In this document: in pieces, positions 13,685 through 59,391 of the stretch | Position numbering within the stretch: the stretch's first letter is position 1 | Layout of the letters: every line of letters starts with the position of its first letter | From: Lytechinus pictus | Lineage: Eukaryota | Direction: 5' to 3' | Assembly: GCF_037042905.1 (NCBI RefSeq) | Contig: NC_087245.1 | Location: 21,764,001-21,828,000 of the forward strand | Length of the DNA: 64,000 nt | Translations under genes and position numbers: made by a program | The notes under the pieces: generated by a model | Database searches by the model: none | What the model saw: the letters and a program-made list of their open reading frames with translations, nothing else | What the model was told of the DNA's origin: nothing

Positions 13685-15110
13685 CAGGCGCGTAGCCAGG
13701 GGGGGGGGGGCGGTGGGGGCGGTCGCCCCCCCCCCCCAAAAAAAAAAAAAACGTCCCCAAAAAGAAAAAAAAGAAGGGAAAAAAGAGAGGAGAAAAGGAA
13801 AAGGGAAGGGAGGAAAGGGAAGAAAGGTAGCTTTTTTTTTTTTTTTTTTTATTCTTTATTTATTTTTTCTCAAAAGAGAAACTCCTTCACTCTTGCGCGG
13901 TTAAATGACAATATTGAAGTTCTCCATTGTTTCCCCCACCCTTTCTCTAACCCTGTTTTTCCACCACAGCTATATGTGTTTCTTGCCAGTTAAAGTTCAA
14001 ATGTACACATTAGGGCATGGAATTTGAGTAAAATTAGGCCGAACTATATGAAGTTATCTTTTTTTTTAAATTGATCGCGCAACTTCTGGTCGGGTCGGCT
14101 TCGGGCGGGTAAAATCTTTAGATCGATTTCTGCCGTCACCTCCATAAAGTCAACTTTTCCCGCTTTTCAGCTCATTACTAAACAACCATAATTTTGGGGC
14201 AAACAGATTCCTAATCTAAAAAGAGGAAGGTATAAAATTTGTGTCGTATTAAATAAAAAGTACAATATTTTTATTGAATTCTATTAAACTTCATGTCATT
14301 TCCCTGCACATTCATCTCCTGTCCTGTTTTGCGCCCTCAGTTTGAAATTTTGAATGACCCTTGAGTTTCTTTATAGTTCAAAATGAAACGCTTCAGGATA
14401 AGTCAAAGAAATTAGGCATCCTTTTTTATATAATTTCAATAAATCACAGAAGTTTCAACTTTTTGCGCACTATTTTCCTTGTAATGAAGTTCAATAATCT
14501 TATAAAATCAATTGAATTAGAGCCGATGGGGAATTAGAGATATCTGCATTTGATGAAACGTCCGCCCTTTGAAATTTCAGAGTTTCATTGCTCTGCGCAG
14601 GGAGGAATATCTTCCTCCCGGCATATACACTTCTCCTCTGTTTTGCGAGTTAAAGATATGCACTGTCGCTAGATTGTTTGTAATCAAATCTGATCTTTCC
14701 AAGGGAAGTATTCAATGTATCTTTGAGAATACCCTTTTCTCGGGACCCTTTTCATGGCAAAAAAATTGATAACACGCTTTAGCTTTAGCGGGTTTATTAT
14801 TCTAATTTCCTTTTTTGCATGTTTTGTGCGTTCATAATCACTTTTGAAAACAAGGTTCATGAAAACAAGGTTCAAAATCACAATATAGTCAACTGAATTG
14901 GAGCTGATATAGGTACTAGAGACAAGAGAGACGGCTCCTTTTCATTTTAATTTATGAAACACCAAAAGCTTCGCGCTTCGCGAGGGAGGGGGAAACTCCA
15001 CCTCCCTGCACCCACCCCCTAGGGAGCGCGCTTCGCGCGCTCTGTAAGTGTTGGCACGCTTCGCGTGCATTTACCGCCCCCTCCAAAATGAAATCCTGGC
15101 TACGCGGTTG
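13685..15110 (+). mobile_element. hAT-like MITE, 1.4 kb (copy 1)
   Basis: caggcgcgtagccagg...cctggctacgcggttg, perfect 8-bp TSD atggaaca. Inverted copy at 51775-53197. Confidence 0.88.
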
Positions 15111-15225
15111 ATGGAACACGAGCAGGTTTTTATATGGTAAAATTACCTTTTTTTAACATTTGTTTTTAAAAACTGTTTCCAAAATGTTAAATTCAAACAT
15201 TTTTAAAGATTTTTCCCGTAGCACA

Positions 15226-15400
15226 ACTATGCGTTGTGGTGTGCGCCCGTAATCCAAGCTGTGGGGAAGTTACAAATTGATGCAGAGGTTCGAGCCTTGG
15301 TCACGTCTTTCGGATGGTGACGTTAAAGGTCGGTCCCAGACGTAAATAATCATATCTGATTGATACACGTCTGACAAAACTCAAATGTACACACATACAC
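15226..15400 (+). mobile_element. SINE-like element with 7SL-like head, B box and Deu-like core
   Basis: gcgttgtggtgtgcgcccgtaatccaagct resembles the 7SL/Alu 5' end. B box ggttcgagcc at 15287. gtctttcggatggtgacgttaaa resembles the Deu domain. CA-rich tail. Confidence 0.6.
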
Positions 15401-16807
15401 CGTGATGTTAGGTGCCTATGTGAGTAAAATAATTTTTATGTGTGTGTGTTTTAATATTCAATGTGTGTTTTAATATTCAACTTCTCGGATTTCTTAAGAC
15501 TTTTTGTGTCCTATATCGAGAGAGTTTATTGTACATGAAAATGCTTCAGTTTTCAAGTAGTGTCATCGCCATCTTGAGTGACAAGTTACCAAATACATTG
15601 GAAAAGTTTGTTTTCATAAAAAAAATCTATTTTTTTAATTGAGAGGAGAGAGAGTAGAAGTTGCAGGCCTATAGCTCTAATTTATTTATTTCAGTAAAAG
15701 CCTGTACATGAAGGCGTCATTTTGTTGGAGGGACAGTGGACGTTTTTTAATAACTTCCTAAAAAAAAACTGTTTTAATTTATAACACTGAAAATTGAGAA
15801 AATCCAAAACGTTTTTAGTTCTAGTGGTTATTTACAAACCCTATCCACTGTGACAGTCATTATCCAACCGACGCCTCTAGGCGCTCACTCTCTTCTCTTC
15901 GATACAATTAATGTATTTGTGACTTTTTTGTGTTAATATTGATAAGTACTTTCAGCTGATTTAAGCAGGTAGGATTGTCATAGTCATATTACACACAATG
16001 GAATATGACTGAAAAAAAATATCCCAGCAAAGCGATTCAAAGCTTTCTTTACGGCCGGTCTAACTCACTTTTTTTCAATCAGAAATTAATTCTTACTCCA
16101 CGTCATGACATGCATGAGCCTAAATCCGATCATTTTAAAAGCATTATAGCTTTTCATATTAACTAGAAAAAAAAAATTAGGAATGTTCCACATAATCAAA
16201 ATATGATGGAATTAGGAATAACCCATACGCTGACTGGACGATGTCATCATAATGTTGTTAGATATTTACCGTACAACTGCAACATTCACATAGATTAACT
16301 ACAATTTTCCCCCAAATGAATAAATAAGAGAAAGAAAGATAGGGAATGAAGAGAAAACACATTAAACGGAAGAGGGAAGGATGAATAAATTAGTGAGAGG
16401 GGGAGAGGAAGAGGGGGGGGGGGCGAACAACGGAAGAACGTAATTTAAAGCCAAGTTCAAGAGGTAATAGGAGTTTAATGCCGCAATACATGTCCATTTG
16501 CTTATTATGCTGTCGTACGCTTGTCGACTTGATTGTGTATGAATAGGACCTTTCCTTCTCATTTTGTGGATTTCGTTTTTCTAAGAAGTATTTATTCGTC
16601 ATTCCTATAAATAACTGACCTTATGCTGTTAATAATCATTGATCGAACTGATCAAATGCAAATTTGCTAGAATGAGAATGATTGATACTGCTAACTCCAA
16701 TGACGCATGCCTCCTCTTATACATTTTTTTGGGGAAAAACAAGATTTAGGAAACTTCAGTACGTGTTATGAAAAATATGACTAATTATTAGATCTACATT
16801 TTACATT

Positions 16808-22400: not shown

Positions 22401-22663
22401 TTCTATAATATAACCTTAGCGAAAAAAGGGGGCAATGGTAATAATGATATAGATTAAGCCGATGGGGGCGGTAACCCATATATTTTTTAATAGATTAAAT
22501 TTTGTTATGATTGTGTTTCATGAGATAACTTCCTGCAGTGAACTGAATGAAGGGGTAGATAATCTGAAAAAAAGAGAGATGGTTTTGCAATTTTATGAAA
22601 AGTCATAACATTTACCTAAACGTTCTTTTCTTTTTGATGAGAATATATCCTTTCTCATTACAG

Positions 22664-23005
22664 GCACGATCAACATTAGTCTTACTGCTGGTGTTGTTAC
22701 AAGCTTGAAATCTTCGAACTATCCTGACAAGTACGAAAACAATTTACACACTCGTTGGCATGTACACGCACCATCGTCACAAAGAATCCTCGTCACGTTT
22801 AATGATTTCTACACTCAACTTGAAGACATTCTTTTTATCAAGGAAGAGAAAAATCCTTATAGATCAAAGTACACCGGGAAGCGTGTGGAAAGCCCTTTTC
22901 CACCTTTTCTCTCTTTAAGTAACCACATTGAAATCATATTTAATTCCGATTACGAAGAAAATAACAAGGGATTTAACTTGTCACTGTCTGCGACGATTCA
23001 AACTG
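22664..23005 (+). CDS. Receptor gene exon 2: CUB domain
   Basis: ttacag acceptor and G|GTGAGT donor, 342 bp, phase 1-1. CUB motifs SSNYPDKY, RILVTFNDF, SLSNHIEIIFNSD..KGF. Confidence 0.9.
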
Positions 23006-23335
23006 GTGAGTATTTTTAGTGGACTGAAATGTCTCGACAAAAAAGGATTTTTTGCACGCGACGCAGAACGCGTTCAAGAACATAAAAATTATTGTCAAAT
23101 GTTTTTTTTTATACCAGGCGGAAATGATTTTTCTTTTAATGTTGATATTTTATATGCTAAAAATTATATATTTTCAACTCGATATTTAAATGGTTATTTA
23201 TCGTTTTCATAATTTCAAAGTAATTAACATATTAACACGAGTAGGAACGTATTATAGATATGCAACAAATTAAGTTTATTGTAGATATTGATAGATCTAG
23301 GCAAATAAAACTTTTTTTATTTTTGTTTATCTATA

Positions 23336-29798: not shown

Positions 29799-30900
29799 TT
29801 AAGACACGGAGGCCGCTGCCTTGAGGGCAGAGGAGGCAAATAAGGCCTCTCCCGAAGGAATGTCCTTTAAATAAAAGGAATTAAAGGAGTTGGAAGAGCG
29901 CCAAAAGGCAGCTCTTAAAATGTCGTCTAAGGCGACTCCATTGAAAAGAGCCCCGGCCAAGAAGTAGCGATACTTTGTGTATCATGGGCTCTCGGCCTAG
30001 TGTCCGAAAGGAGAGCATCATCACCAGCTGATTTGATCGCCTCAACGATCCAGCGGGAGATGGTGTCTCGCGACGCTGCCACAAACGGCTCGCGCGACGT
30101 GACAAACAACTGATTTGCGAAGCGACTTCGTTCTATCCAGATACCATTTCAACGCCCTGACCGGGCACCAGACTTTGTCCTCGGCAACCGAGGAAAGATC
30201 TGAAAGAGGAGCTAGGAAGAACTCAAATCGAACGAGAGGTGGTAGTCTGATTCTTGCCAATGAAAGACAGTGTGGGGATCAAGCGGACTCCACGCCGTTC
30301 CCACCGGATGTGACCGGAAGAAATACACAAAGCGTGAATAGGCTGCGTCTTTGACCGGATGCTACAGCAATTAGAAAGGCAGTCTTAACAGACAAATTAT
30401 GCAAGGAGCTCTTGGCCAGAGGCTCAAATGGAGGTTTAGCCAAGGCGTTAAGCACAGCCGGTAGACACCAGGAAGGAGCCAGACTTTTCTTCGGAGGTCG
30501 CTTTAGGAAAAACGCTCTCATCAGTCTAGAGAGAAGACTGGCATTAGGGACGTTGGAGCCATCTGGGAATCCGGAATGAAACGCGGCAATAGCCGACCGG
30601 AAGCCCCTAATGGTAGAAAGCGAACGACCGATGTCGAAAAAGTGAACAAACAAATCCGCGATCGCGGCAAGAGAAGCGCTGCGAGGATCAACAGACCGCG
30701 CAGCGCACCAATCTGAAAATCGGCCCAAACGAGAATTGTAAAGATCAAGAGTCGAGTTTCTCCGACTTTGCATCACCAATTGTGAGGCACGATCAGAAAG
30801 GCCTAACGCTCTCGCGTCCTGCCCGATAACGCCCATGCAGTTAAGTGGAGGACCGCTGGACGAGGATGCACGATTCCCGACAGAGGTTGAGATACTATTT
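29799..30900 (-). pseudogene. DIRS tyrosine recombinase (frameshifted; 5' limit approximate)
   Basis: SRRNSTLDLYNSR, KTAFLIAVASGQRRS, CPVRALKWYL, RAHDTQS and AAFWRSSNSFNSFYLKD are spread over several frames. Stop at 29799-29801. Confidence 0.9.
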
Positions 30901-30958
30901 CTGATCTCAGAGGAAGTATGAGCGGATCCCCCTCCAACAATTCTAGGAGCTGTGGTAA

Positions 30959-31417
30959 TCAGCACCTCCTTGGCCAATTGGGGGCCAATAGAAGAAGCCA
31001 AGCTTGGTCTTCCTTCACTTTCCTCAATACCTGCGGTATTAGGTGGAACGGAGGAAACGCATAACACCTCCGATCCAGCCAATGAATGGAGAATGCATCC
31101 AGGGAAGTTGCTTCTGTTTCGTTGACACGAGAGCAGAACATCGGTAACTTCCGGTTGAGAGCCGTGGCAAACAAGTCTATTTCCAGGGGCCCCCAGTGGG
31201 CTTGGACAGACTGAAATATCTCCGGGTGAAGCGACCATTCGGATGGTAGGCACCGGCCCCGTGACAGAAAATCGGCTATCAGGTTGTCGCTGCCTGGAAT
31301 GTACGAGGCAATTGGAACGATCTTCGCATGGCGGCACCACTCCCAGAGCTCCGCAGCGAGGGCGTTGAGAGAGCTCGATCGGGCCTTGAGGGCCTTGGCG
31401 ATTGATGTACGCCGCAA
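30959..31417 (-). pseudogene. DIRS RNase H C-terminus plus DNA adenine methyltransferase-like domain
   Basis: YIPGSDNLIADFLSR (RNase H end), then IDLFATALNRK..FCS, DAFSIHW, YAFPP and LLAPNWP, typical of the DIRS1 MT domain. Confidence 0.85.
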
Positions 31418-32658
31418 CTGACTTGTTGTCTGTGCGAATCAGGACCGTTCGTTCGACTAACCTGTGTCGGAAATGCTGAAGGGAGTTCATGACAGCCTTC
31501 ATCTCCAACACATTGATATGAGGTAAGGTGCGTTGGGACGACCAGACACCCGAGGTCATCTCCCCCGCACAATGGCCGCCCCATCCCGTAAGCGACGCAT
31601 CTGTAGTCAGAGCGGCTGATGGGAGGGGAGTGCGGAAGGGCTTGCCCCTCGCTACAAAGGACGATCGCATCCGGGCGGCCAGGCTGAGACGGATCTCCTG
31701 AGACAGTGGGATCCGGAGATGCAGAGAATCTACGCTCGGTCTGTAATAGCGCAGGAGGTGTCTCTGAAAAGGTCTCATAAGCAGGCGACAATCCCAAAGG
31801 ATGTCGACAAGGCTTGCCATAAACCCGAGCAACCTCAGCCATGTGCGAGCTTTCACAGAGCTGCGAGCCAGAGAGACGATTGCCCGAACTCTGTCGGGGC
31901 TTGGTCGAGCGATCTGGTTTGGCAGGTCTAGAACCACGCCCAAGTATGTGGGTACGCGGGAAGGCGAGAGATCCGATTTCTCCCAATTCACTACGAATCC
32001 CAACTCCTGTGTGACCCGCAGGAGAAGGGATACGTGTAAAAGGAGTTTGGTCTTTGAACTTGCGGCTAGCAACCAGTCGTCTAGATAAACGAAAACCCTG
32101 AGGCCTCGTTCTCTCAGGTGGGCGTCCACTGCTGTGACCACCCTAGTGAAGACTCTTGGTGCCGGGCGTAAACCGAAGGGCATTGCCCGGTATCTGTATG
32201 TCGCTTCAACCCAACAGGTCCCGTGAAGCGGAATGAATTGGTATGTGGAAATAGGCGTCCCTGAGGTCTAGGGAGACGGCCCAATCCGATGCCTGTAGAG
32301 ACGGCAGAATCGATGCTAGTGTTTCCATTCTGAAATGGTCTGGCTGGATGAATTTGTTGATCATTTTCATGTTCAAAATCATCCTCAATTTCCCCGAGCG
32401 CTTGGGGACGACGAAGATAGGAGAGAGACAGAGATGTGGACTGTCTGGAACCCTCTCTATCGCCTCCTTCTCCAGCAGTGCACCGTTTTCTGCTTCGATG
32501 TACTGCTGATGAAGAAAAGAAACGGTCGGCGGGGCGGATCGAATCGCGCCGTGCGGGAAGGCCTCTATATTGATATAGAAGCCATCTCGCACGACAGATA
32601 AGATAAAAGCGTCGGAGACGACCGCCGACCGGTCCCAGCGCTCGGGAAAACCCGTCAA
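31400..32658 (-). pseudogene. DIRS reverse transcriptase and RNase H (frameshifted)
   Basis: SPIFVVPKRSGKLRMILN, SLDLRDAYFHIPI, MPFGL..AP..F, VYLDDWL, LTTDASLTGWG, HINVLE, IRTDN. Frame breaks near 32200 and 31400. Confidence 0.93.
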
Positions 32659-32699
32659 AGAGGCTGTTTGGGCCTGGCCGGAGCCCTGTAGGCTGGCCG

Positions 32700-34204
32700 G
32701 CTGCCCCTACCCCAACCACCACGTGAGGTACTCACCGGAGGTCTAGTGCGAGCTCTGCGACTTGGCGGCGCGGGTGCACAGGGTTGAGATGGGGCCACCA
32801 CGGGACGAAAGGAAGGACGGGCCTTGGGGGCCGGCTACTTCGTGGGTGGAGCCATCGGGCGCGAGGCTTTGAGTTCTTAAAGAAGCTCCGAAGCCTGTTT
32901 GCGTCCGTCGATCTCTTCTTTGAGAAGAGAGGCCACCTCGCCCCCGAACAAATGTTTGTTCGATTGGGGGACGCCCGGGAGGAACTCTAGAAAGTCCTTG
33001 GACGCGATGCCCAGTCTACTAAGGACGCAAGTTCTGCACGAGTTGGATGCAGTAGTGGCTGCAGTAGCTAGTTGCATCCAGAGCTCGCCTACCAAGGACA
33101 AAAGTGCCTCATCAAGAAGGACACTGTCGTTGGCTGTCACTTCCAGTTTGGAGGACTGTGCTCTTAAACCGAGCAAGGCCCTGAAGAAGGCTGTAAGTCT
33201 GAGGGCTGAACAAGTCAAGGCCTCATATCTAACGTCCGCTTTCTCAACAGTGGCAAAATGACTGGAAGAGAAACGGGTCCCCAAACGTGCCCCGATGCGG
33301 TTAAGCTGGGGGGAGAACGTCTTGGGGGTGAAGAACGCCTCGGTGTTGTCCTTGGAGAAGGCAAAGTTCTTTCCGAAGGACACCGGTTTTCTTCCCTGGG
33401 CGGCAGGCATGCTAGCCTGTAAGGCCGCCCTCTCGTATGCAGCCTTGAAATCATTGGTGAGTGGAATACCTTGAGGGGTTTTCCGTGGCTGCGAGAAGAA
33501 AAGAGAGTCCATATCTCCCTCTACCGGCTCATTAGCAGGGTAGATGTGCGGAAGATATCTATGGAGGATCTCTGTGGCGTCCTGGGCCGTGCTGGCAGAC
33601 GGTTGAGGAGCCGGGCTACTCGGAGGATCGGGATTGAACTTGTCCTCCGATAAAGCCTGTTCCGCCTCCAGAGGGGGGAACCAACCCACGTCTCCTCACT
33701 TGGCGGAGCCCCGAGGGTAGCAGGCGCCCGTGAAAGGCTTGAGTGGCGGTGCTTCGCCGACGCTCCCTTGAGGAGTCTGACACGGCATCGAGCCTAGTCT
33801 GTGCCAGAAGGAGAGGCCCGTGCTCTTCCCCGGTCTTTGGGTGACCCGATAGCCGGTGGGTCTGGCAGCCCTGGAGGAGTCGGCGTTTTCTGAGCTAGTA
33901 CGACGCTCCCCAAATATGGTTCAGGTTCCGGGACGGAAGCCTGGGCTATCACTTTGCGGGCACGTGGTTGCAGTTCCATGGTTCCACCCTTCTTTAGTTG
34001 GGCACATGGACGCGCTTCCACGGTTCCACCCCCATGGGCACGTGGACTCGGATCCATGGTTCCACCCTTCTTAGAACCCACGAGGGATCTTTCTCTGTTG
34101 CTTTCTACATTACCACTGGTAAGGAACAGAACCCCGGTGTTGGACACCTCTCCAGCGGCCATTTCGAGCTCTTCTAGGGAGGAATCCGAGAGGCTAATGC
34201 TCAC
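32700..34204 (-). pseudogene. DIRS ORF1 (gag-like), frameshifted
   Basis: GC-rich ORFs 33794-34204 and 32877-33689 lie directly upstream of RT in the same orientation. Assigned by position only. Confidence 0.65.
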
Positions 34205-39496: not shown

Positions 39497-40478
39497 GTAA
39501 GTTTGATTTATTGTGATTTATTTCATTTCCAGTTTCAATTAATTTCAACCAGTAAAATACAAATTGGCCAATAATAGTTTTATAACGTAACATGCAAAAA
39601 AATTGTGTTATCAAAATTGATTTCAGAACAATTTTTGTCTGTGATATTTGTTTTGGTAAACAGTTGATATTGTTTATGATGGTACTAGTAAAAAAAATCA
39701 ACTTGTACAGATTGAAAGCTGTAATTAGACGACTTATCATATCCCCTTTCTGGCATTTTTAAAGTGATTATGACGACTTAATAAAAATGAACGTTAGTAC
39801 TGTGCTAGATGTCACTTTGGTTACTTAACCACTTCGTCAGCTGAAATAAAATTGAGTTCATATTAGGATATTGTATTACTAACTTTTAATACAATCATCG
39901 TTTATTCGAGACCAAATATGATTGAGAAATTGCTGAAATAAATCAAGAAAGGGCTGAATATAATTAACTATAAAAAAATTGCAGTCTGTCTTGATGACGA
40001 CGGAAGCACTGTGTCATTTAGCACTGAGCTTGTATTGGCATGGATGCATCTGATCCTTTCACTGAATTTGATATTGCATTCCTCTCGGATAAAATATCAC
40101 CAAATTCCATTCGAAGGAAAATTGTTGTTACATGTATCTACTGAACTTAAAGATGTAAATCAAACATCTTAGTGTTGGAAAGTCAATTCAACAGAAAGGG
40201 AGGGTATTCAATGTGCCCATTTTATTCTGACCGAATTGTAGCATTCTATAGGAATTACCGTAGATTTGGTTCTTTCTAAAACAGTGTCCCCGGAACATCC
40301 AAGTGTAAAGGAAACACCGTGCAAAATTGATATAAAATGAATCAAGATGAATCATTCTTTCATAATGATAATAGGAAATTTACATGCATATTTCTTACTC
40401 CCATTCCGAATATGGTGCTGTATTTTAAAGAATATTATTTCTTATGCTTGGTCTGTAACTTTTATCATGTTATCATAG

Positions 40479-40694
40479 TAACTAATGGTTTCTGTGGCGA
40501 TCCCCCTGAAATCGAAAACGGATCTTGGTATAACACAATGAATGGATTCCTATACGGCACAACGATCACCGCTAAGTGTGATGAAAACTATGAGCTTATT
40601 GATGGAGATGGGAGGATGCGATGTGAGGAGAGCTCTACAAATCAAGATTTTGAATGGCATGGAAACATTCCATCTTGCCGAATGAGGAATACTG
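40479..40694 (+). CDS. Receptor gene exon 6: CCP/sushi domain
   Basis: tcatag acceptor, G|GTAAGT donor, 216 bp, phase 1-1. CGDPPEIENG...YGTTITAKCDENYEL.G...C...W.G.IPSC. Confidence 0.92.
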
Positions 40695-43600
40695 GTAAGT
40701 AAAGTGAGATTATCATGACTACGTTCAGTGACGTAACTACGGAGGGTGCGGGCGGCCCTTGCCTCCTCCCCAATCGGCTGGCATAAAAAAGAGGGATAAG
40801 GGAGAGAAAGTGGGAGAAAGAAAGAGAAACAGATAAAAAACGAAAATATAAAAGAATAACTATCTGTTAAATTTTCTTTATTGGAATTAGGGAGCTTGTC
40901 AAAAGTCCATGCACCGTTCTTGATCGTTTTTACCGCATCCGGGTTTTCGCTTCGGCTTTCCCGCCCAACGTTCCCTTGTCTTCAAAGGAACGGCCGCCAT
41001 CAAAGGTCCATTGATGCCACCGTTCTTTTGTTCGTCTTTCCTGCAAGTCTTAATTTCTGTCGAAAGACCGAAGAATCTATTCTAAATAGCTCCCTCTACG
41101 ACCAAAACAAAGGCGTGCCTTCATATTTACTGTCGGATCGGAGAGTTCGGGTCACTGTGGTTCGCATCTATAATGGAAGTTCGGGTGCAGTAAAGCCACG
41201 GTAGCTTAATCAAAAATCACGCACGTGTCATAAATCGTTACTGATCTTTCGAATTTGCTGCAATAACCATGAAAACCTCTTTTTTTTTTGCAATTGGAAG
41301 AGAGTCAATTCAGGATGTTTTAGGTGGGAAAATAAGATTCCACACATTTTCGTTTCGTAGGCCCAAGCCATTCGTAGAATTCACGTCAACTTGGAATATT
41401 TATTATTACTCGCATCTGAAACAAGTTTGGAGCCCCCCCCCCCCCAAAAAAAAAAAAAAAAAAAAAAGGAAATGGAAAGATGAAATGACTATGACCGGAA
41501 CAGCTTGGCACTATTAGGCATAGATAGATCAACGATTTATTAGAAACTGTAAGAAATAATTTGTTCAATTTTTGGACGGGCAACCATTTCCCCAGGATAA
41601 CATATTGTCTTAGTCTTAAATTTCCTTATCTCCTTGTTTTAAAGAAGCGGGACCAAAAGAGAAGATGAAAAGAGGAAGAAGAAAACTAAGAAGGATAGGG
41701 AGAGAAAAGGAAGGGGAAACAGAGAGATAATAAAAAAATAATATTGGGGTGGAGGAAGAGGAAGGGTGAAAAAAATATGGAGGAAAAACAGTTGAACGAG
41801 AAAAAAAACTAGGAAATTTGAGAGGGGAAGAAATTTAGGATCGCCAATCAATGGGAGAGGGGGGACAAATTGAAATATGGAAATGGATAGAGACAGAAAA
41901 TAGGGGAAAGAAGAAGAAAGAGCTGGTGGACGATGGGGGGGGGGGAGAAAAAAAAGGGGGAAAGTGAAAGGGGAACAGAGGGGAAGACTTGCAGTGGCGG
42001 AGGCTGGATGTGTGAAAAGGGCTAAATTTTCCAATAAAATTTGATTTCATACCTATCACATCACAATCATTTTAGGGCCATGCTCATATAACCAAGGAGA
42101 TATCATCTCCTTGATATAATATAGTACTCAAGAATGGAATGGTGACATGAACTTTTATGACCGGGATTTACCAATGTAATTATAAACTTAAAAGCTTTAA
42201 ATCATCATCAAGAAGGAATGTAAGCGGACAAAATTCAGTTAAAAAAATAAGAATAAACTAAATGGGAGGCTTACAAGTTGCATAAATTGTGTGTGATTTT
42301 TATTTCATCAAAAAAGTATTTTTCTTGGTATTATTCATTGAATGTGTGACTTTCGTAACGTTCAGTATCTTTCATTTGTCATAATCACCAAGGCTACCAC
42401 TACCACATTCACCATCACCGCCACCACCACCATCATCATCATCAGTGTTGATTATCATCACTATCATCAGCAGCATCATTATCGTCAGCAGCAAATCATC
42501 TATGTCATTATCATAGTTATTGAAATTAGGATCATTTTGGTAAGGAAATAATGAAAGGGACTGAAAATAAAAAGTTTGTAGCGGGAAGGGAAGGAGGTGA
42601 ATTTGTTCTAAAGTAAAACCAATGTGAGTAGAATTAACTCTATGTTTTTATCTATATTGCAGTGATGGTAAAAATCAGTACAATACTAGGATGCCATGAT
42701 GTTCAATAATTTAAACTTCAAATTTCAATACTTCACGGGTGAAGATATGGGGCCGTAAGCTTCAGGGTAATTATGTAGAATGATATTAACATTAGATCAT
42801 TACTCTAAAATAGATGAAAGATAATTATTTATCATCTATATGAGGTTGTACACAACTGGCCTACAGCAAAAGCGAATGGGGCCATGATATAGTCTTCTCC
42901 AGCAAGAGAATTGAACATTATTGATCTTTCAGGATTACTTGGCATTAATACTCATCGAACTGTTCTTAGTCATTGCCCAGGCCTATGGTCATGAAAGAGC
43001 AAGATCACTCACCCGTGTAGAGAATCATTAATTGACAATGGCATGCTCAGCGGGTTGGCTATAGACCACAATGAATGGGAGAGGCGCTCAGAGAATAGTT
43101 CCCCATATCCGCTGTCGTGATTATTGTCATAATTTCAATAGACGAACCTTCTTCAAAAGACCGTTGGCCCGTCCGATGGGGAATCTTTTGTACTATAGTG
43201 TATTAAAGTGCGTGTATACAGTAACTACCGTCCCGACTTCTTTCTTTCACCATCATCGAGTAGCGATTAGCACGTAAAACCGCATAAATTATCTCACAAA
43301 ACGGATCTAATGTTCATGATTACCAGCATCACCATAATCATTACTATTATCTTTCATATATTCTTAATTATATAAAATATAAAATTGATATTGGAGAACG
43401 ATTGTAAATAGATAATGAATGAATGATGATGGTGATGATGATAATGATAATTATAACTTTGAAGTGATATTAACAGACATGATAATACGAATAATAATAT
43501 CAGTGATAATGTTGATGATTAAATGATAACAAATGAAGATGATTGGTATATTTTGCGGCAATGAACCATGTATAACTTGAGACGCGTTTTTTTCTTTATT

Positions 43601-43929
43601 ATGTTTGTTTTAAAAGGGTTTTCACATCATGATCCTGAAATACATAGATTATATTTAAATTAAAAATAGAGAGAATGGATGGCCTTCATCTAATTTTGGA
43701 AAAGATTTTGCGGGTTCTCAAGTCGAACGCAGTATCAAACATGATTGCATATCGAGGTCGATGCGATTTTTATATCGACATCATTCCCCAGTAGTCCAGT
43801 CAATCTAGCCAGAATAGGGGGGTAACCCACCACTAATTGCAACACAAGATATTCCACTGAAATGTTTTCCAGGAAGGTCCCCTAAACAACATACTAAAAG
43901 TCCCAAGAAATCCAAGCAGTGGAAATTTA

Positions 43930-44895: not shown

Positions 44896-47800
44896 TGACT
44901 AAACAATATGCTATCTGGCCATATCTGGGTCAGGACTGGGTCCCAGGACTTCAGCGTCATCATCATCATGATCAGTGGTGAATACTAAGACTAAAAATAT
45001 TTGCCTTCCTTTAATAATGATATTCCAATGTAATCATAGCTATTGATATTAAGGGCTTCCAACATGCTAATTGTTACAGCCTGGATCATTGTCAATCCGG
45101 TCAACAAATTATGTATTATAGGCTTGTCTATAAACCCTCTTATGGTTCTAATTGTCATGTTAAAACTCTTCGATTAACTTTGATAAATGATACGTAATTT
45201 TGTCTTTAGAATTTTGTCGAGTATCAACAAGCATTCTAAATTGTTTACAAAAGTGCAGTGATCATCGGATTTTTTCAGATGTCACGAATCAAGCACCATT
45301 TCTCGATGATGTTCTATTTTAGAAATAATCTTTTGAGCACCAAACGAAGTATATGTTGTAATGTTATTCAGACCCAGATCGTGAAGTCTGTCCCGATAGA
45401 TGGTTTACAAGAAAAAAATACGCAGACATTTTGGTCGGTCGCCAAATCGCTGGGAAAAAAAATGAAAAGGGCTAAATTTTCCAATAAAACACATTTGATT
45501 TCATACCTATCACATCACAATCATTTAGGGCCATGCTCATATAATACAGTAATAGGGAATGGAATGGTGACATGAACTTTTCTGACCGGGATTTACCAAT
45601 ATAATTATAAACTTAAAAGCTTTAAACCATAAAGAAGGAATATGAACGGATACACTGCAGTTTTTTGTAATAAGAATAGATTAAATAGGAGGCCTACAAG
45701 AAGCATACATTGTGTGTGAATTTTATATCATCAAAAATTATGTTTCTTGGTATTATTCATTGAATGTGTGACTTTCGTAACTTTCAGTATTTTCATTTAT
45801 TATAATCATCAAGGCTGCCACATTCACTACCACCGCCACCACCATCATCAGTGTTAATTATCATCACTATCATCAGCAGGATCATTATAGTCAAGTCAAC
45901 AGCAAATCATCTATGTCATTATCGTAGTTATTGAAATTAGGATCATTTTGGTAAGGAAATAATAAAAATGAGAGAAAGGTTGTAGCGGGAAGGGGGGTGT
46001 GAATTTGTTCTAAAGTAAAATCAATGTGAGTAGAATTAACTTTGTTTTTATCTATATTGCAGTGATGGTAAACATCATTGCAATACTATTTAGGATGCCA
46101 TGATGTTCAATAATTCAAGCTTAAAAATTCAATACTTCACGGGTGAAGATATGGGGCCGTAAGCTGCAGGGAGATAATTATGTAGAATAATATTAAAATT
46201 AGATCATTACTCTAAAATAGATGAAATGTAATTATTATATATTTATTATTTATATTAGTTTGTACACTTAATGGCCTAACGGCAAAAGCAAATAGGGCCA
46301 TGATATAGTCTTCTCCATCAAGAGAATTGAACATTATTTTCCTTTCAGGATTAATTGCTGGGCATTATACTCATCGAACTGTTCTAAGTCATTGCCCAGG
46401 CCTATGATCATGAAAAAGCAAGATCACTGACCCGTATAGTAGAGAATCATTGACAATGGCATGCTCAGCGCGTTCGCCACAGAGAACAATGGGAGAGACG
46501 CGCACAGACTTTAGTTCCCCATATCCGCTGTCGTGATTATAGTCGTAATTTCAATAGATTAACTTACTTCAAAAGACCGTTGGCCGGTCCGATGGGGAAT
46601 CTTTTGTACTATAGTGTATTAAAGTGCGTATATACAGTAACTACCGTCCCGACTTCTTTTGTGCTATTTAAAAGATTTCTTTCACCACCATCGAGTAGCA
46701 ATTAGCACGTAAAATCGCATAAAATACCTGACAAAACGGGTCTAATGTTCATGATTACCAGCATCACCATAATCATTACTATTACCTTTCATATATTTAT
46801 AATTATAGAAAATATAAAATTGACATTGGAGAACGATTGGAAATAGATAATGAATGATGATGATAATGATAATAACAGTGATGATGATAATGATAATAAT
46901 AACAATGAAGTGATATTAACGGACATGATAATACGAATAATAATATAAGTGAAAATGTTGATGATCAAATTATAACAAATGAAGATGATTGGTATATTTT
47001 GCGGTATAATGAACCATGTATAACATGAGACACATTTTTCCTTTATCATGTTTGTTATAAAAGGATTTTTATATCATGATCCTGAAATACATAGATTATA
47101 TTTCAGTTTTCAAACAAAATTAAGAAGAGGGAGAATGGATGGCCTTTATCTAATTATGGAAAAGTTTTTGCTGGTTGCCAAGTCCGATGCAGTATCAATC
47201 ATGATTGCATACCGAGGTCGATGCGATTTTTATATCAACGTCATCATCCCCCAGAGTTTATCAAGTTTAATTTGAGTTTGTGTGCATTTTCGCAAAAATT
47301 GAAATTTGTCATGTTTGTAATACGAGATTATTCTAATTTTAGAGTGCTGTATCATCCGAACTGCATGCCATCCCGGCTATATACGTACGTTTTGAATTCA
47401 TCGCCTAATTCAATTTCTGGATGCATGATACCATGCACTGCAGTTAAAGCGGAATGTCTCGGTCATATGTCAAAACTTAAGGTAATAATATTCAAACATA
47501 TCAGCTCTTTTTTTAACTGTGATCCATATCCACTCACAATTTTCATACAAATCTCGAATTTTCCGCTTCCGCTTCGCATCAGTTGCTTATTTGTATAACT
47601 ATATTTTTCATGATTACAAAAATTGCTTAGAATTTTCATTCTTCAGGTAGAAATGTCAAGATTTTCAGCTCACGCTTCGCGCTCACATTATTAACTTGTT
47701 GAAATATGTAACGTTTTCATTTACGGATATTACAAGCAGCCGTTAACAGTTCCCTTTTTATCAGAATGATCAAAACTCATTTTATTCATCTCGTTTAGGA

Positions 47801-51774: not shown

Positions 51775-53197
51775 CAACCGCGTAGCCAGGATTTCATTTT
51801 GGAGGGGGCGGTAAATACACGCGAAGCGTGCCAACACTTACAGAGCGCGCGAAGTGCGCTCCCTAGGGGGTGGGTGCAAGGAGGGGGAGTTTCCCCCTCC
51901 CTCGCGAAGCGCGAAGCTTTCGGTGTTTTATAAATTAAAATGAAAAGGAGCCGTCTCTCTTGTCTCTAGTACCTATATCAGCTCCAATTCAGTTGACTAT
52001 ATTGTGATTTTGAACCTTATTTTCAAAAGTGATTGTGAACGCACAAAAAAGGAATACAATGGTGGAAATTGAAATAATAATAACCCCGCGCGAAGCCCGG
52101 AAGCTAAAGCGTTTTATCAATTTTTTTGCAAAGAAAAGGGTATTCTCTAAGATATTTTGAATACTTCCCTTGGAAAGATCAGATTTGATTACAAACAATT
52201 TAGCGACAGTGCATATCTTTAACTCCCAAAACAGAGGAGAAGAAGGGTATATGCCGGGAGGAAGATATTCCTCCCCGCGCAGAGCAATGAAACTCTCAAA
52301 TTTCAAAGGGCGGACGTTTCATCAATTGCAGATATCTCTACTACCCCATCGGCTCTAATTCAATTGATTGTCTAAGATTATTGAACTTCATTACAAGGAA
52401 AATAGTGCGCAAAAACTTGAAACTTCTGTGATTTATTGAAATTATATAAAAAAGGATGATGTATAATTTTTTTGACTTATCCTGAAGCGCTTCATTTTGA
52501 ATGATAAAGAAACTTAAGTGTCATTCAAAATTTCAAACTGAGGGCGCAAAAAAGGACACAAGATGAATGTGCAGGGAAATGACATGAAGTTTAATAGAAT
52601 TTGATAAAAAATATTGTACTTTTTTATTTAAAACGACACGAATTTTGTACCTTCCTCTTTTTAAATTAGGAACCTGTTTGCCCCAAAATTATGGTTGTTT
52701 AGTAATGAGCTGTAAAGCAGGAGAAGTTGCCTATATGGAGGTGACGGCAGAAATTGATATAAAGATTTTACCCGCCCGGAGCCGACCCGACCAGAAGTTG
52801 CGCGATCAATTAAAAAAAAAAGATAACTTCATATACTTCGGCCTAACCTTACTCTAATTCCATGTCCTTATGTATACATTTGAACTTTATCTGGCAAAAA
52901 ACACATATAGCTGAGGTAGAAAAATAGGGTTAAAGAAAGGGTGGGGGAAACAATGGAGAACTGCAATATTGTCATTTAATTGACATATAAATTTAGAGCA
53001 AGAGTGAAGGAGTTTCTCTTTTGAGAAAAAAAATAAAGAATGAAAAGGAAAAACCCACAAAGCTACCCTTCTTCCCTTTCCTCCCTTCGCTTTTCCTTTT
53101 CTCCTCTCTTTTTTCTCTTCTTTTTTTTCTTTTTGGGGACGTTTTTTTTTGGGGGGCGACCGCCCCCACCGCCCCCCCTGGCTACACGCCTGGCCTG
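51775..53197 (-). mobile_element. hAT-like MITE, 1.4 kb (copy 2, inverted)
   Basis: Reverse complement of 13685-15110 with its own perfect TSD tcatgatc. Confidence 0.88.
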
Positions 53198-56904: not shown

Positions 56905-57123
56905 GTAAGAATCTGTTTTAAACGGCAGTTGCTAGCATGCCACATATCTATATCTTTAGGCGGATGATGCACATTGCCCTGGGAAGGGCTGTGCTGGGGG
57001 TGATGCGTGTATTATTTTCCATAGGCAGCACCCCAAGAAATTGAGATTATAACTTATTTTTTTACTAATATCTACGCATGCGGCTTTATTGTGAAAATGA
57101 TATTGTTTTAAATTAATTCACAG

Positions 57124-57277
57124 AAAATGGTCCGGTGAAAAGTCGTCTCGGAATTTCAGTAGGCGGAAAAATCGCAATCATCGTCTCCATTTTTGTTATC
57201 GGCGCCATATTTTGCGGTGGTCTCTTTTTGCGGAAACGGCAGAAAGAAGATGATAATGGAGATGAAACATCTATGGG
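57124..57277 (+). CDS. Receptor gene exon 8: transmembrane helix
   Basis: tcacag acceptor, GG|GTAAGA donor, phase 1-2. IAIIVSIFVIGAIFCGGLFL is followed by the stop-transfer RKRQK. Confidence 0.88.
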
Positions 57278-57717
57278 GTAAGAACAACTTCAAATCATTC
57301 TTATTTTGAAAAGAATGCAAATTTTTGTGAGAATAATTACTAACCAAATCAAACACTATAATGAGAAAACGTAGAATATCACAATTTCACTTTCACCATT
57401 TACTTTTCATTTATCACTTTAGCTCAGAAAAATATAACTTTTACTTAATCGACATTTCCAGCACACGTCTATGATTATTATATGAATAATACTGAAATTA
57501 GCATGCCACTGGACACATATGTCCATTTTATGGATTAGCACTTTTAAAAGTTCTTATTACAATACTTTTTGCACCATGCTATATGAGTATATAAGCAATT
57601 TATTTCTAAAACGAAACTTTTCGCAACAATTGTTTTTTTAATATGATTTTAAATGAGCCATTTCTTTTCAGATTAATGCACTAACCTGCTACTATTCATT
57701 TTTCATGCACCTCATAG

Positions 57718-57786
57718 TTGCACATTCAGGTCATGTGATGCCGGTGATGATCAGTGTTGTCGAATAAAACGTGTTATTCAAGGCAA
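57718..57786 (+). CDS. Candidate optional cassette exon, Cys-rich juxtamembrane peptide (CTFRSCDAGDDQCCRIKRVIQGK)
   Basis: Branch-like actaac and ctcatag acceptor. 69 bp, phase 2-2, open if the weak donor AA|GTATTG is used. Confidence 0.3.
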
Positions 57787-58391
57787 GTATTGCTTTTAAA
57801 TGCAAGACCGGACGGTGGTGGCGCTGCAGAGAAGGGGAAACCAATCCTCGTTATGATTACAAAGTTATCTGAGAAGAGAAAATAATGAGACGCTTTTAAT
57901 TATTTTCCTTAGAAGATAAGAGTGAATTTTTTTTTTAAAATTTGTCACAACAGTAAGCCCAAATAGTTGTCATAATGTGTTCATCTGTTCTACACTACGA
58001 TAATGGTGAGGAAAAGGGGTGCGAGTCAATTTAATATTTTCTTTTTAAAACGCAAATATTTTATATCATGTATATAGTTGGTTGTTTGTTTCCCTTTATG
58101 TGGAAAGGCATTGGAGTAGACCTCCAAGTACTCCAACCTATACATATTGAGTATTTATAGTGTATACGGGGATGTGCCGCTAAGAACGTTTATTTTTTTT
58201 AATCAAGAAAAGGGGTTTCCTTTCACAAAAAGTACTTAAATATTGGCTCGTTCAAATTAATAAGTTATCATGATAACTTGAATATATAACGATTACTTAA
58301 CGCAAACCTACATGGAAGTCGGCATGTGATTGTAAAAGAAATGTCTATGTGAATGATCATTAAGGGTTGTAAAATCCCATTTCAATCATAG

Positions 58392-59391
58392 GAGTCTTTG
58401 CCAGCTGTGCTCTTTCAACACCAAAGGAGAGTCCCATGGACCTAGAAGATCAGAAACCCACAATCCAGAAGGAACGTCAAGATTCCATCAACCTTTCTGG
58501 ATCCCTTATCCTACAGAAGTCATCGAAAATGAATACGAATGTAGCATAAAGACGGAACATCCTGTGACCACAGATTCGCCGGTGATAATCCGACAAAATC
58601 AATCTTCTCCCTCCGACTTGACAAGTTTCCGTTCTCCAAATTCTACCAGTGACGCCCCAAGTCAGGAAGCTTCAGGTGTGGAGGAAAATTACCAGTCCAT
58701 CTCCGACTCGACGATTTCTATCACGAATGCTTATCCGTCAATGCAGGCTAGACCAGGGTTAGTTGAGACAAGCGCTCACTTGCGTTCTGTAAACGCTCGA
58801 CCCCTCCCTGACCGACCAGTAAGCGAAGATCGTCCTTACGCTGAACTTGACACCGAGGATGACCGTGCGAATGAATTTCCACCTACCAGGGAAGAACAAA
58901 GCTATCACGATCCTCTATCTCTGTGGGCAAGTGATCCGAATCTTTTCAGAAGATCATCTGTTGTTGGACCCCATCCAAATGAGGTTCCTCCCTTAACAGT
59001 AGGTGTCGATGATTGTGCCCGGGTGGTCCAACCTGGACCTGAGCGAAATGGAATTCCCGATGAGGTGATTTCTGAAGGTTCAGTTGATAATCATAGTACA
59101 CATGAGTATGAATATGCATCCATCCCAGGCGATCATTCTATGATAAGGTCTCTAAGGGGGAGAGGGGCTCAGAGTCAATTATCATGCTCTGACAAGAAGT
59201 ACTACTCAATCCAAGGCCCTCTTCTTCAAGGTGAAAGCAAGGATGTCCAGGCTGGTGAACATCGTTATCCTCTAACAGGAGAACCGCCATCACAAGGTCC
59301 ATATTATTATGGATTGGAACCTGATGGTATGATTCAAAATCCATTGTACAAATCCCTGGAATCTTTTTTTATAGTTTCATCACTTTCCTAA
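58392..59391 (+). CDS. Receptor gene terminal exon: long cytoplasmic tail with tyrosine and proline motifs
   Basis: tcatag acceptor in phase 2, matching exon 8. 1000-bp open frame that includes the 275-aa track ORF and ends at TAA 59391. Confidence 0.85.

What the first reader, a model, noticed from the sequence alone, without database searches (positions are those of the whole stretch)
15226..15400. Candidate 7SL-derived (Alu-like) SINE with a Deu-like core in an invertebrate genome
Seen: 15231-15260 (gcgttgtggtgtgcgcccgtaatccaagct) aligns without gaps to my recalled human 7SL nt 6-35 at 22/30. Several mismatches are C>T at CpG, and the YGUAR U-turn motif is kept. Next come a Pol III B box (ggttcgagcc, 15287), a segment like the conserved Deu SINE domain (gtctttcggatg..gacgttaaa..ggtccc) and a CA tail. 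Known: 7SL-derived SINEs are rare (Alu/B1 in Euarchontoglires and, as I recall, a hagfish family), whereas most SINE heads come from tRNA or 5S. Inference: this may be an independently evolved 7SL-headed SINE family.
Basis: partly seen in the sequence, partly recalled or inferred. Interest (0 to 1): 0.8.

Follow-up and report, generated by a model that had tools for sequence, protein, structure and literature searches.

The report
Sea-urchin SINE with minimal 7SL head
This is one copy of a highly repeated short element in a sea urchin whose first 45 bases match the protein-binding front end of signal-recognition-particle (7SL) RNA and likely came from it, the rare origin of human Alu; it likely arose by replacing the head of a tRNA-type element and is predicted to use that piece to reach ribosomes and a host retrotransposon's copying enzyme.

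Summary
Observation largely confirmed. The window is Lytechinus pictus. 15226-15400 is one copy of a high-copy interspersed repeat with sharp ends. Its first 45 nt align to positions 1-44 of Rfam Metazoa_SRP: 30 of 44 identical, E=0.021 on 211 bases, but not listed in 2.2-kb or whole-window scans. Nearly all other copies carry two letters that move the head closer to 7SL and restore the pseudoknot and U-turn bases. Two metagenome copies share the body and tail (76 and 78 of 80) but have tRNA-like heads, which points to a head swap. The 'Deu core' is only the first ~33 nt of Deu (probably the Inv domain). Unlike Alu, B1, Urop and hagfish SINE1, no 3' 7SL segment is present; the kept piece about equals the 46-nt domain that suffices for Alu retrotransposition (PMC12199147). 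I could not obtain the host 7SL gene, copy number, partner LINE or Repbase/Dfam. The scan found this family before at many other sites of this genome (unchecked notes). Verdict: new variant of 7SL-headed SINE; none from an invertebrate in the papers read.

The parts
15226..15270 (+). 7SL (SRP RNA) 5' Alu-domain-like head, model positions 1-44; includes the box A position (15230-15239), pseudoknot triplets at 15238-15240 and 15258-15260, U-turn at 15248-15252, closing helix 15226-15228 with 15268-15270
   Evidence: Rfam; majority letters; fold test; zebrafish 7SL primer passage
15271..15286 (+). Linker, likely from the tRNA-headed parent SINE; many copies carry a 7-nt duplication behind 15284
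   Evidence: 9 of 10 match to L002 directly at the junction, 13 of 5000 shuffles; no such match to L001 (1657 of 5000); duplication in 785 of 1165 reads of X24
15287..15304 (+). tRNA-type Pol III B box (15287-15297) and 3' end of a tRNA-like head
   Evidence: Same 18-nt distance to the core and 12 of 18 identity in both L001 and L002; majority C at 15297
15305..15337 (+). Short conserved core equal to the 5' end of the Deu domain (probably the Inv/alpha domain)
   Evidence: 26 of 33 identical to AmnSINE1_HS (15304-15336, by eye); exact match in L001 and L002; Inv defined as the 5' part of Nin, itself part of Deu, and listed for echinoderms
15337..15373 (+). 3' stem-loop (7-bp plus 6-bp stems), candidate LINE-recognition signal
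   Evidence: -11.5 kcal/mol; same fold in L001 and L002; also in the full-length fold; partner not identified here
15374..15400 (+). A-rich spacer and degenerate (CA)n tail; 3' boundary of the repeat
   Evidence: Sequence; depth falls from about 2e5 to 0 across 15400-15414 and loose ends diverge

Best explanation
This is one copy of a high-copy, ~175-nt interspersed repeat of Lytechinus, likely a SINE, whose first 45 nt match the 5' Alu domain of 7SL RNA and were likely captured from it, joined to the B box, short conserved core, 3' hairpin and (CA)n tail that tRNA-headed relatives also carry. Shown: repeat status and ends, SRP match, shared body with a different head. Inferred: (1) a template switch or recombination replaced the 5' half of a tRNA head by 7SL nt 1-45; (2) Pol III transcribes it from the 7SL-type A box plus the inherited tRNA B box; (3) the head folds as the Alu 5' domain, binds SRP9/14 and brings the RNA to ribosomes; (4) a LINE reverse transcriptase recognises the 3' hairpin and tail and inserts copies. 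This copy has lost the U-turn triad and is likely inactive. I put the 7SL origin at ~0.85 and the SRP9/14 role at ~0.5.
For: Rfam SRP 1-44 at the exact 5' end, E=0.021, top hit; no SRP hit on same-length stretches of L001/L002. Other copies: C at 15240 in 94 of 94 RNA reads and 114,644 of 116,485 contig depth; T at 15248 in 191 of 191 reads and 346,056 of 347,202; both are SRP-consensus letters (32 of 44). They restore the GGC-GCU pseudoknot triplets and U23-G24 named in PMC12265939 (passages). With two further letters from loose ends, 12 of 14 model pairs are standard (21 of 20,000 shuffles) and helix 3 is in the minimum-energy fold, pair probability 0.98. The closing helix is Watson-Crick with two double-sided differences from the Rfam consensus. 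Body 76 and 78 of 80 identical in L001/L002 while the head is unrelated to their 5' regions (505 and 1554 of 2000 shuffles score as well). SA46 binds SRP9/14 and gives ~86% of Alu activity (PMC12199147, sections 17-18). Reads in an RNA run: 2,434 of 8.7 million, about 9:1 one strand.
Against: Host 7SL gene not obtained, and no 7SL-continuing reads appeared in either lay. Score 16.1 bits is far below gathering (70); absent from wider scans. The two 5' G letters rest on a loose-end consensus of 22 contigs with 0.45 agreement. The window copy does not fold as the SRP domain (10 of 14 pairs, 601 of 20,000 shuffles; helix 3 probability 0.04; whole element z=0.13); helix 4 and the closing helix stay improbable (0.18, 0.02) even with family letters. 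Pair counts are not independent of sequence identity. No target-site duplication next to this copy. L001/L002 are of unknown species, so a tRNA-headed parent in Lytechinus itself is not shown. SA46 data concern L1 and poly(A) tails in HeLa cells; this element has a hairpin and CA tail.
Confidence: 0.78

Rival explanations
1. 7SL-derived head, but kept only as a promoter (A box and start site); SRP9/14 binding plays no part and mobility depends on the 3' hairpin alone.
For: Mobilisation through a 3' stem-loop is the usual route for non-L1 SINEs (PMC7245038 introduction); tRNA-headed relatives with the same tail exist without any Alu domain; a subfamily indel lies in loop 4 (loose ends at 15260).
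Against: The SRP match ends at the boundary of the 5' domain (model 44), not after box A; pseudoknot, U-turn and closing-helix bases are retained.
Confidence: 0.3
2. An ordinary tRNA-derived Inv-SINE whose diverged head resembles 7SL by chance or through the shared A-box consensus.
For: Low Rfam score, region chosen after the fact; the B box is tRNA-type; tRNA heads are the majority of SINE families (84%, PMC3531059 passage).
Against: The match extends well past box A through the U-turn and helix 4; family letters improve it; 12 nt equal zebrafish 7SL; no similarity to the tRNA-like heads of L001/L002, nor, by eye, to the SINE2-1_SP/2-2_SP heads.
Confidence: 0.1
3. Contamination or a stray Alu/7SL retrocopy rather than a SINE family.
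For: The head is Alu-like; no target-site duplication at this copy.
Against: Head and body are contiguous in many contigs with diverse flanks in runs of two coded organisms; the body is shared with L001/L002; the surroundings are sea-urchin DNA; similarity stops at nt 44.
Confidence: 0.02

Closest known systems
SINE1-1_EBu (Ebu1-1), hagfish; Kojima 2020, PMC7245038 (parts 1-3 of 4 and part 2 of supplement 1 read)
   Same: 7SL head acquired by chimera formation with an older tRNA-headed SINE; non-poly(A) microsatellite tail; non-L1 partner expected
   Different: Hagfish element keeps 7SL 5' 96 nt plus the 3' segment and the 7SL box B, with an RTE-derived bipartite tail; this one keeps only nt 1-45, uses a tRNA B box, and has an Inv-like core and hairpin
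Alu/FLAM/B1/Tu (Euarchontoglires) and Urop (shrew mole); Kosushkin 2026, PMC13023118 (parts 1-3 of 5 read)
   Same: 5' Alu domain with box A at the 5' end; tree-shrew Tu units of dual 7SL/tRNA origin are a precedent for a hybrid head (one passage)
   Different: Those share a ~183-nt central deletion joining 5' and 3' 7SL parts, poly(A) tails and L1 mobilisation; none of these is seen here
Deu/Nin/Inv HCD-SINEs (AmnSINE1, EbuSINE1, SINE2-3_SP); PMC5804259 (passages), PMC7245038 Fig. S4
   Same: First ~33 nt of the Deu domain; Inv is listed for echinoderms; head replacement on such cores is known (5S head in AmnSINE1/SINE3, PMC4758252 passage)
   Different: Remaining ~100 nt of Deu absent; head is 7SL-like rather than tRNA or 5S
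SA46 minimal Alu domain (engineered); Moldovan 2025, PMC12199147 (abstract, sections 17-18 read)
   Same: About the same 7SL interval, shown there to bind SRP9/14 and support retrotransposition
   Different: Artificial, CMV-driven, L1/poly(A)-dependent; this is a natural element with another tail

Membership tests
SINE (SINEBase definition) | Short (<1 kb), interspersed, at least 100 copies | tested here: met
   ~175 nt; 5,088 contigs laid in X1 with diverse flanks, summed depth ~1e6 inside vs 0-25 outside. X1 is a coded organism and the count in L. pictus itself was not made.
SINE (SINEBase definition) | At least 60% identity to tRNA, 5S or 7SL over at least 60 nt (or Pol III transcription shown) | tested here: not met
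   The 7SL match spans 45 nt; criterion from PMC3531059 passage. Head plus tRNA remnant together are ~80 nt but from two RNAs.
SINE (general) | Pol III transcription from internal A/B boxes | tested here: inconclusive
   Boxes present; strand-biased RNA reads; read-end pile-ups at 15235/15236/15241 may come from the tool's removal of human-like reads
SINE (general) | Target-site duplication / partner LINE tail | tested here: inconclusive
   No flanking direct repeat at this copy; hairpin conserved; no genome to search for the LINE
SINE1 (Repbase sense: 7SL-derived head) | 5' end homologous to 7SL RNA | tested here: met
   Rfam SRP 1-44, E=0.021, strengthened by family letters; weak at window scale
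SINE1 (Repbase sense: 7SL-derived head) | Head closest to the host's own 7SL gene | not testable with these tools
   No genome held; earlier scan notes claim it, unchecked
Alu/B1/Urop/Ebu1-1 architecture | 5' and 3' 7SL segments joined by a central deletion; 7SL-derived box B | tested here: not met
   Rfam match stops at model 44; sequence from 15287 on is shared with tRNA-headed L001/L002
Alu 5' domain (works like) | Pseudoknot triplets and U-turn triad | tested here: inconclusive
   GGC-GCU and U23-G24 in majority letters; G4 only from a weak loose-end consensus; broken in this copy; binding untested
Deu-SINE | Full ~130-140-nt Deu domain | tested here: not met
   Only the first ~33 nt match (by eye)
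Inv/alpha-SINE | Match to the Inv consensus | not testable with these tools
   Consensus not obtained; SINEBase supplements unavailable; assignment inferred

The most novel reading that the evidence does not exclude
A fourth independent origin of 7SL-headed SINEs and the first in an invertebrate, in which evolution kept just the minimal SRP9/14-binding domain and grafted it onto a tRNA-SINE promoter and a non-L1 tail, so that ribosome targeting by SRP9/14 raised the element's mobility over its tRNA-headed parent.
Probability: 0.45. Interest if true: 0.82.

Novelty: new variant of a known kind. Interest (0 to 1): 0.68.

Why it matters
SINE specialists wrote in 2024 (PMC10886601, passage) and 2026 (PMC13023118) that 7SL-derived SINEs are known only from supraprimates, hagfish and shrew moles, and that the successful ones share a central deletion joining the 5' and 3' parts of 7SL. 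A sea-urchin family with only the 5' domain would break both generalisations and be a natural counterpart of the engineered 46-nt minimal Alu. Because tRNA-headed elements with nearly the same body and tail exist, it offers a matched pair for testing a long-standing question: whether SRP9/14 binding gives a SINE a general advantage, also with a non-L1 partner. It also suggests that short 7SL heads are missed by 60-nt criteria and standard Rfam thresholds.

Tried and rejected
No whole genome is held, so copy number, subfamily ages, the host 7SL gene and the partner LINE stay open. No second copy in the window. Head-motif scans: 0 matches in viral contigs; 1 in prokaryotic genomes, a chance match in an Acidobacteriota contig without the rest of the element; core motif 0 in viral contigs. 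ARAGORN finds no tRNA in L001/L002 and Rfam no tRNA there (only a tRNA-like mascRNA hit at E=3.4 in L001), so their tRNA origin rests on A/B boxes read by eye and 'no tRNA hit' in the window says nothing. RNA read ends piling up at 15235, 15236 and 15241 (26, 42, 36 molecules) were considered as Pol III starts and set aside: the tool drops human-like reads, which would remove reads with the full Alu-like head and may also explain the lower depth there and the lack of 7SL reads. Summed contig depth was not used as a copy number. No RNA holder was listed for the 4-kb stretch. Part (2) of script 64 and the body and B-box comparisons in script 50 were misregistered by one base and are replaced. 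Ten paper searches listed no paper whose title or abstract describes a 7SL-headed SINE in an echinoderm; most hits were seen as listings only. SINEBase supplements could not be read and one supplement of PMC4758252 was not searched; either, or Repbase/Dfam, may hold this family under a tRNA label. The scan's own sequence look-up found nothing, its word look-ups did.

Full report
Source and setting. An exon at 58357-59388 is 100% identical to a Lytechinus pictus protein, so the window is from this sea urchin. No whole genome was available. The window is repeat-rich, but the element occurs in it only once.

It is a repeat with sharp ends. Laid on 15120-15520 at 80% likeness, run X1 gave 5,088 contigs, X8 381, X12 4, and raw RNA run X24 2,434 of 8.7 million reads. 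Summed depth in X1 is 8-25 upstream, about 1e6 across 15260-15371 and 0 after 15414; loose ends at both sides have low agreement, that is, many different flanks. Some contigs extend to 15224-15227, and 22 contigs that align from 15231 have a loose-end consensus ending in CTGG (agreement 0.45 over 30 letters), placing the family's start near 15226. The runs are of coded organisms holding at most 26% of the words of the 4-kb region, so they may include a sister species; depth is not a copy number.

The head. Rfam on 211 bases returns Metazoa_SRP model positions 1-44 on 15226-15270 as the best of six hits (16.1 bits, E=0.021). I count 30 of 44 identities and one inserted base; the inserted base lies in a 12-mer (15249-15260) identical to the start of a zebrafish 7SL primer (PMC3566149, passage). 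The hit is absent from 2.2-kb and 64-kb scans, so one decayed copy is weak evidence on its own. Other copies strengthen it: 15240 is C in 94 of 94 reads and 98% of contig depth, 15248 is T in 191 of 191 reads and over 99% of depth, both SRP-consensus letters. They restore the GGC-GCU loop-loop triplets and the U23-G24 part of the U-turn triad that PMC12265939 names (passages). Standard pairs in the SRP model go from 10 of 14 (this copy; 601 of 20,000 shuffles) to 11 (146) and, with the two loose-end G letters, 12 (21), at which point helix 3 is in the minimum-energy fold. Helix 4 and the closing helix remain improbable in ViennaRNA (0.18 and 0.02), which ignores tertiary contacts and protein, although the closing helix is fully Watson-Crick with two double-sided differences from the Rfam consensus. 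The SRP match stops at model 44; no 3' 7SL segment was matched. I saw no read of 7SL itself; the tool removes human-like reads, which may explain this, and for the same reason I do not use the read-end pile-ups at 15235-15241 as start sites.

The body. One scan of metagenome contigs with the core gave two loci. Both match 15305-15384 almost perfectly (76 and 78 of 80), keep the 3' hairpin and have a B box at the same 18-nt distance (12 of 18 identical), but their 5' regions are unrelated to the head (505 and 1554 of 2000 shuffles score as well), give no SRP hit and show tRNA-type A and B boxes by eye. Rfam and ARAGORN do not score them as tRNA. L002 shares 9 of 10 letters with the linker starting at 15271, directly after the SRP match (13 of 5000 shuffles); L001 does not. 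Run X12 (organism C) gave three contigs on the core or tail (of four laid) and none on the head or B box. The simplest reading is that 7SL nt 1-45 replaced the 5' half of a tRNA head. The species behind L001 and L002 are unknown, so the parent is not shown in Lytechinus.

The core matches the first 33 nt of the Deu domain of AmnSINE1 (26 of 33, by eye from Fig. S4 of PMC7245038); the other ~100 nt are absent. Inv is described as the 5' part of Nin, itself part of Deu, and is listed for echinoderms (PMC5804259, passages), so Inv-like is the better label (inferred; consensus not seen). No target-site duplication flanks this copy.

Mechanism. Shown: repeat, ends, SRP similarity, shared body, presence in RNA with about 9:1 strand bias, partly from one locus of 621 reads. 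Inferred: Pol III transcription from the 7SL-type A box and a tRNA B box, which would remove the dependence of 7SL genes on upstream promoter sequence (own knowledge); folding of the head as the Alu 5' domain and SRP9/14-mediated ribosome targeting, by analogy with SA46, which binds SRP9/14 and retrotransposes at ~86% of Alu (PMC12199147); recognition of the hairpin and tail by a LINE enzyme. This copy differs from the family at five majority positions plus two weakly supported ones and has lost the triad, so it is likely inactive.

Comparison and novelty. PMC13023118 (2026) and PMC10886601 (2024) list 7SL-derived SINEs only for supraprimates, hagfish and shrew moles; the successful ones join 5' and 3' 7SL parts. 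This element meets the Repbase sense of SINE1 (7SL-like head), fails the Alu/Ebu1-1 architecture and the 60-nt SINEBase criterion, and is not a Deu-SINE.

Earlier notes of this scan, read after I had reached this reading, describe the same family at many other sites of this genome, with several hundred to about 1,900 copies, a match to the host 7SL gene and an I/Nimb-type partner. I could not check these and do not count them as evidence.

Verdict: a real feature; new variant of a known kind; interest 0.68.

Noticed in passing
window 15260 and 15284 (reads of X1, X8, X24): Two indel variants among copies: a form about 2 nt longer in the loop after 15260, and a 7-nt duplication just before the B box (785 of 1165 reads in X24). 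They suggest subfamilies.
   Followed up: partly
window 15396, run X24: 621 RNA reads continue into one and the same downstream sequence, so one locus elsewhere supplies about a quarter of the laid reads.
   Followed up: no
L002 296-365; L001 334-492: tRNA-headed relatives with the same core and hairpin; L002 has a 9-nt duplication in the hairpin loop and a (CCAA)n tail, L001 a (CA)n tail.
   Followed up: partly
window ~30280-33700, - strand: GC-rich (54-56%) retroelement with reverse transcriptase split over frames and an RNase H-like stretch (Pfam); the layout looks DIRS-like (recalled, not tested).
   Followed up: partly
window 22609-23019, 40331-40702, 57123-59388: Exons for a CUB domain, a Sushi domain and an uncharacterised protein (LOC135155633) on the + strand; possibly one or two multidomain receptor genes.
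   Followed up: partly
window 13685-15110 and 51775-53192; 42013-43791 and 45463-47254: A 1.4-kb inverted duplicate (88%) ending 115 bp upstream of the SINE, and a 1.8-kb direct duplicate (84%).
   Followed up: no
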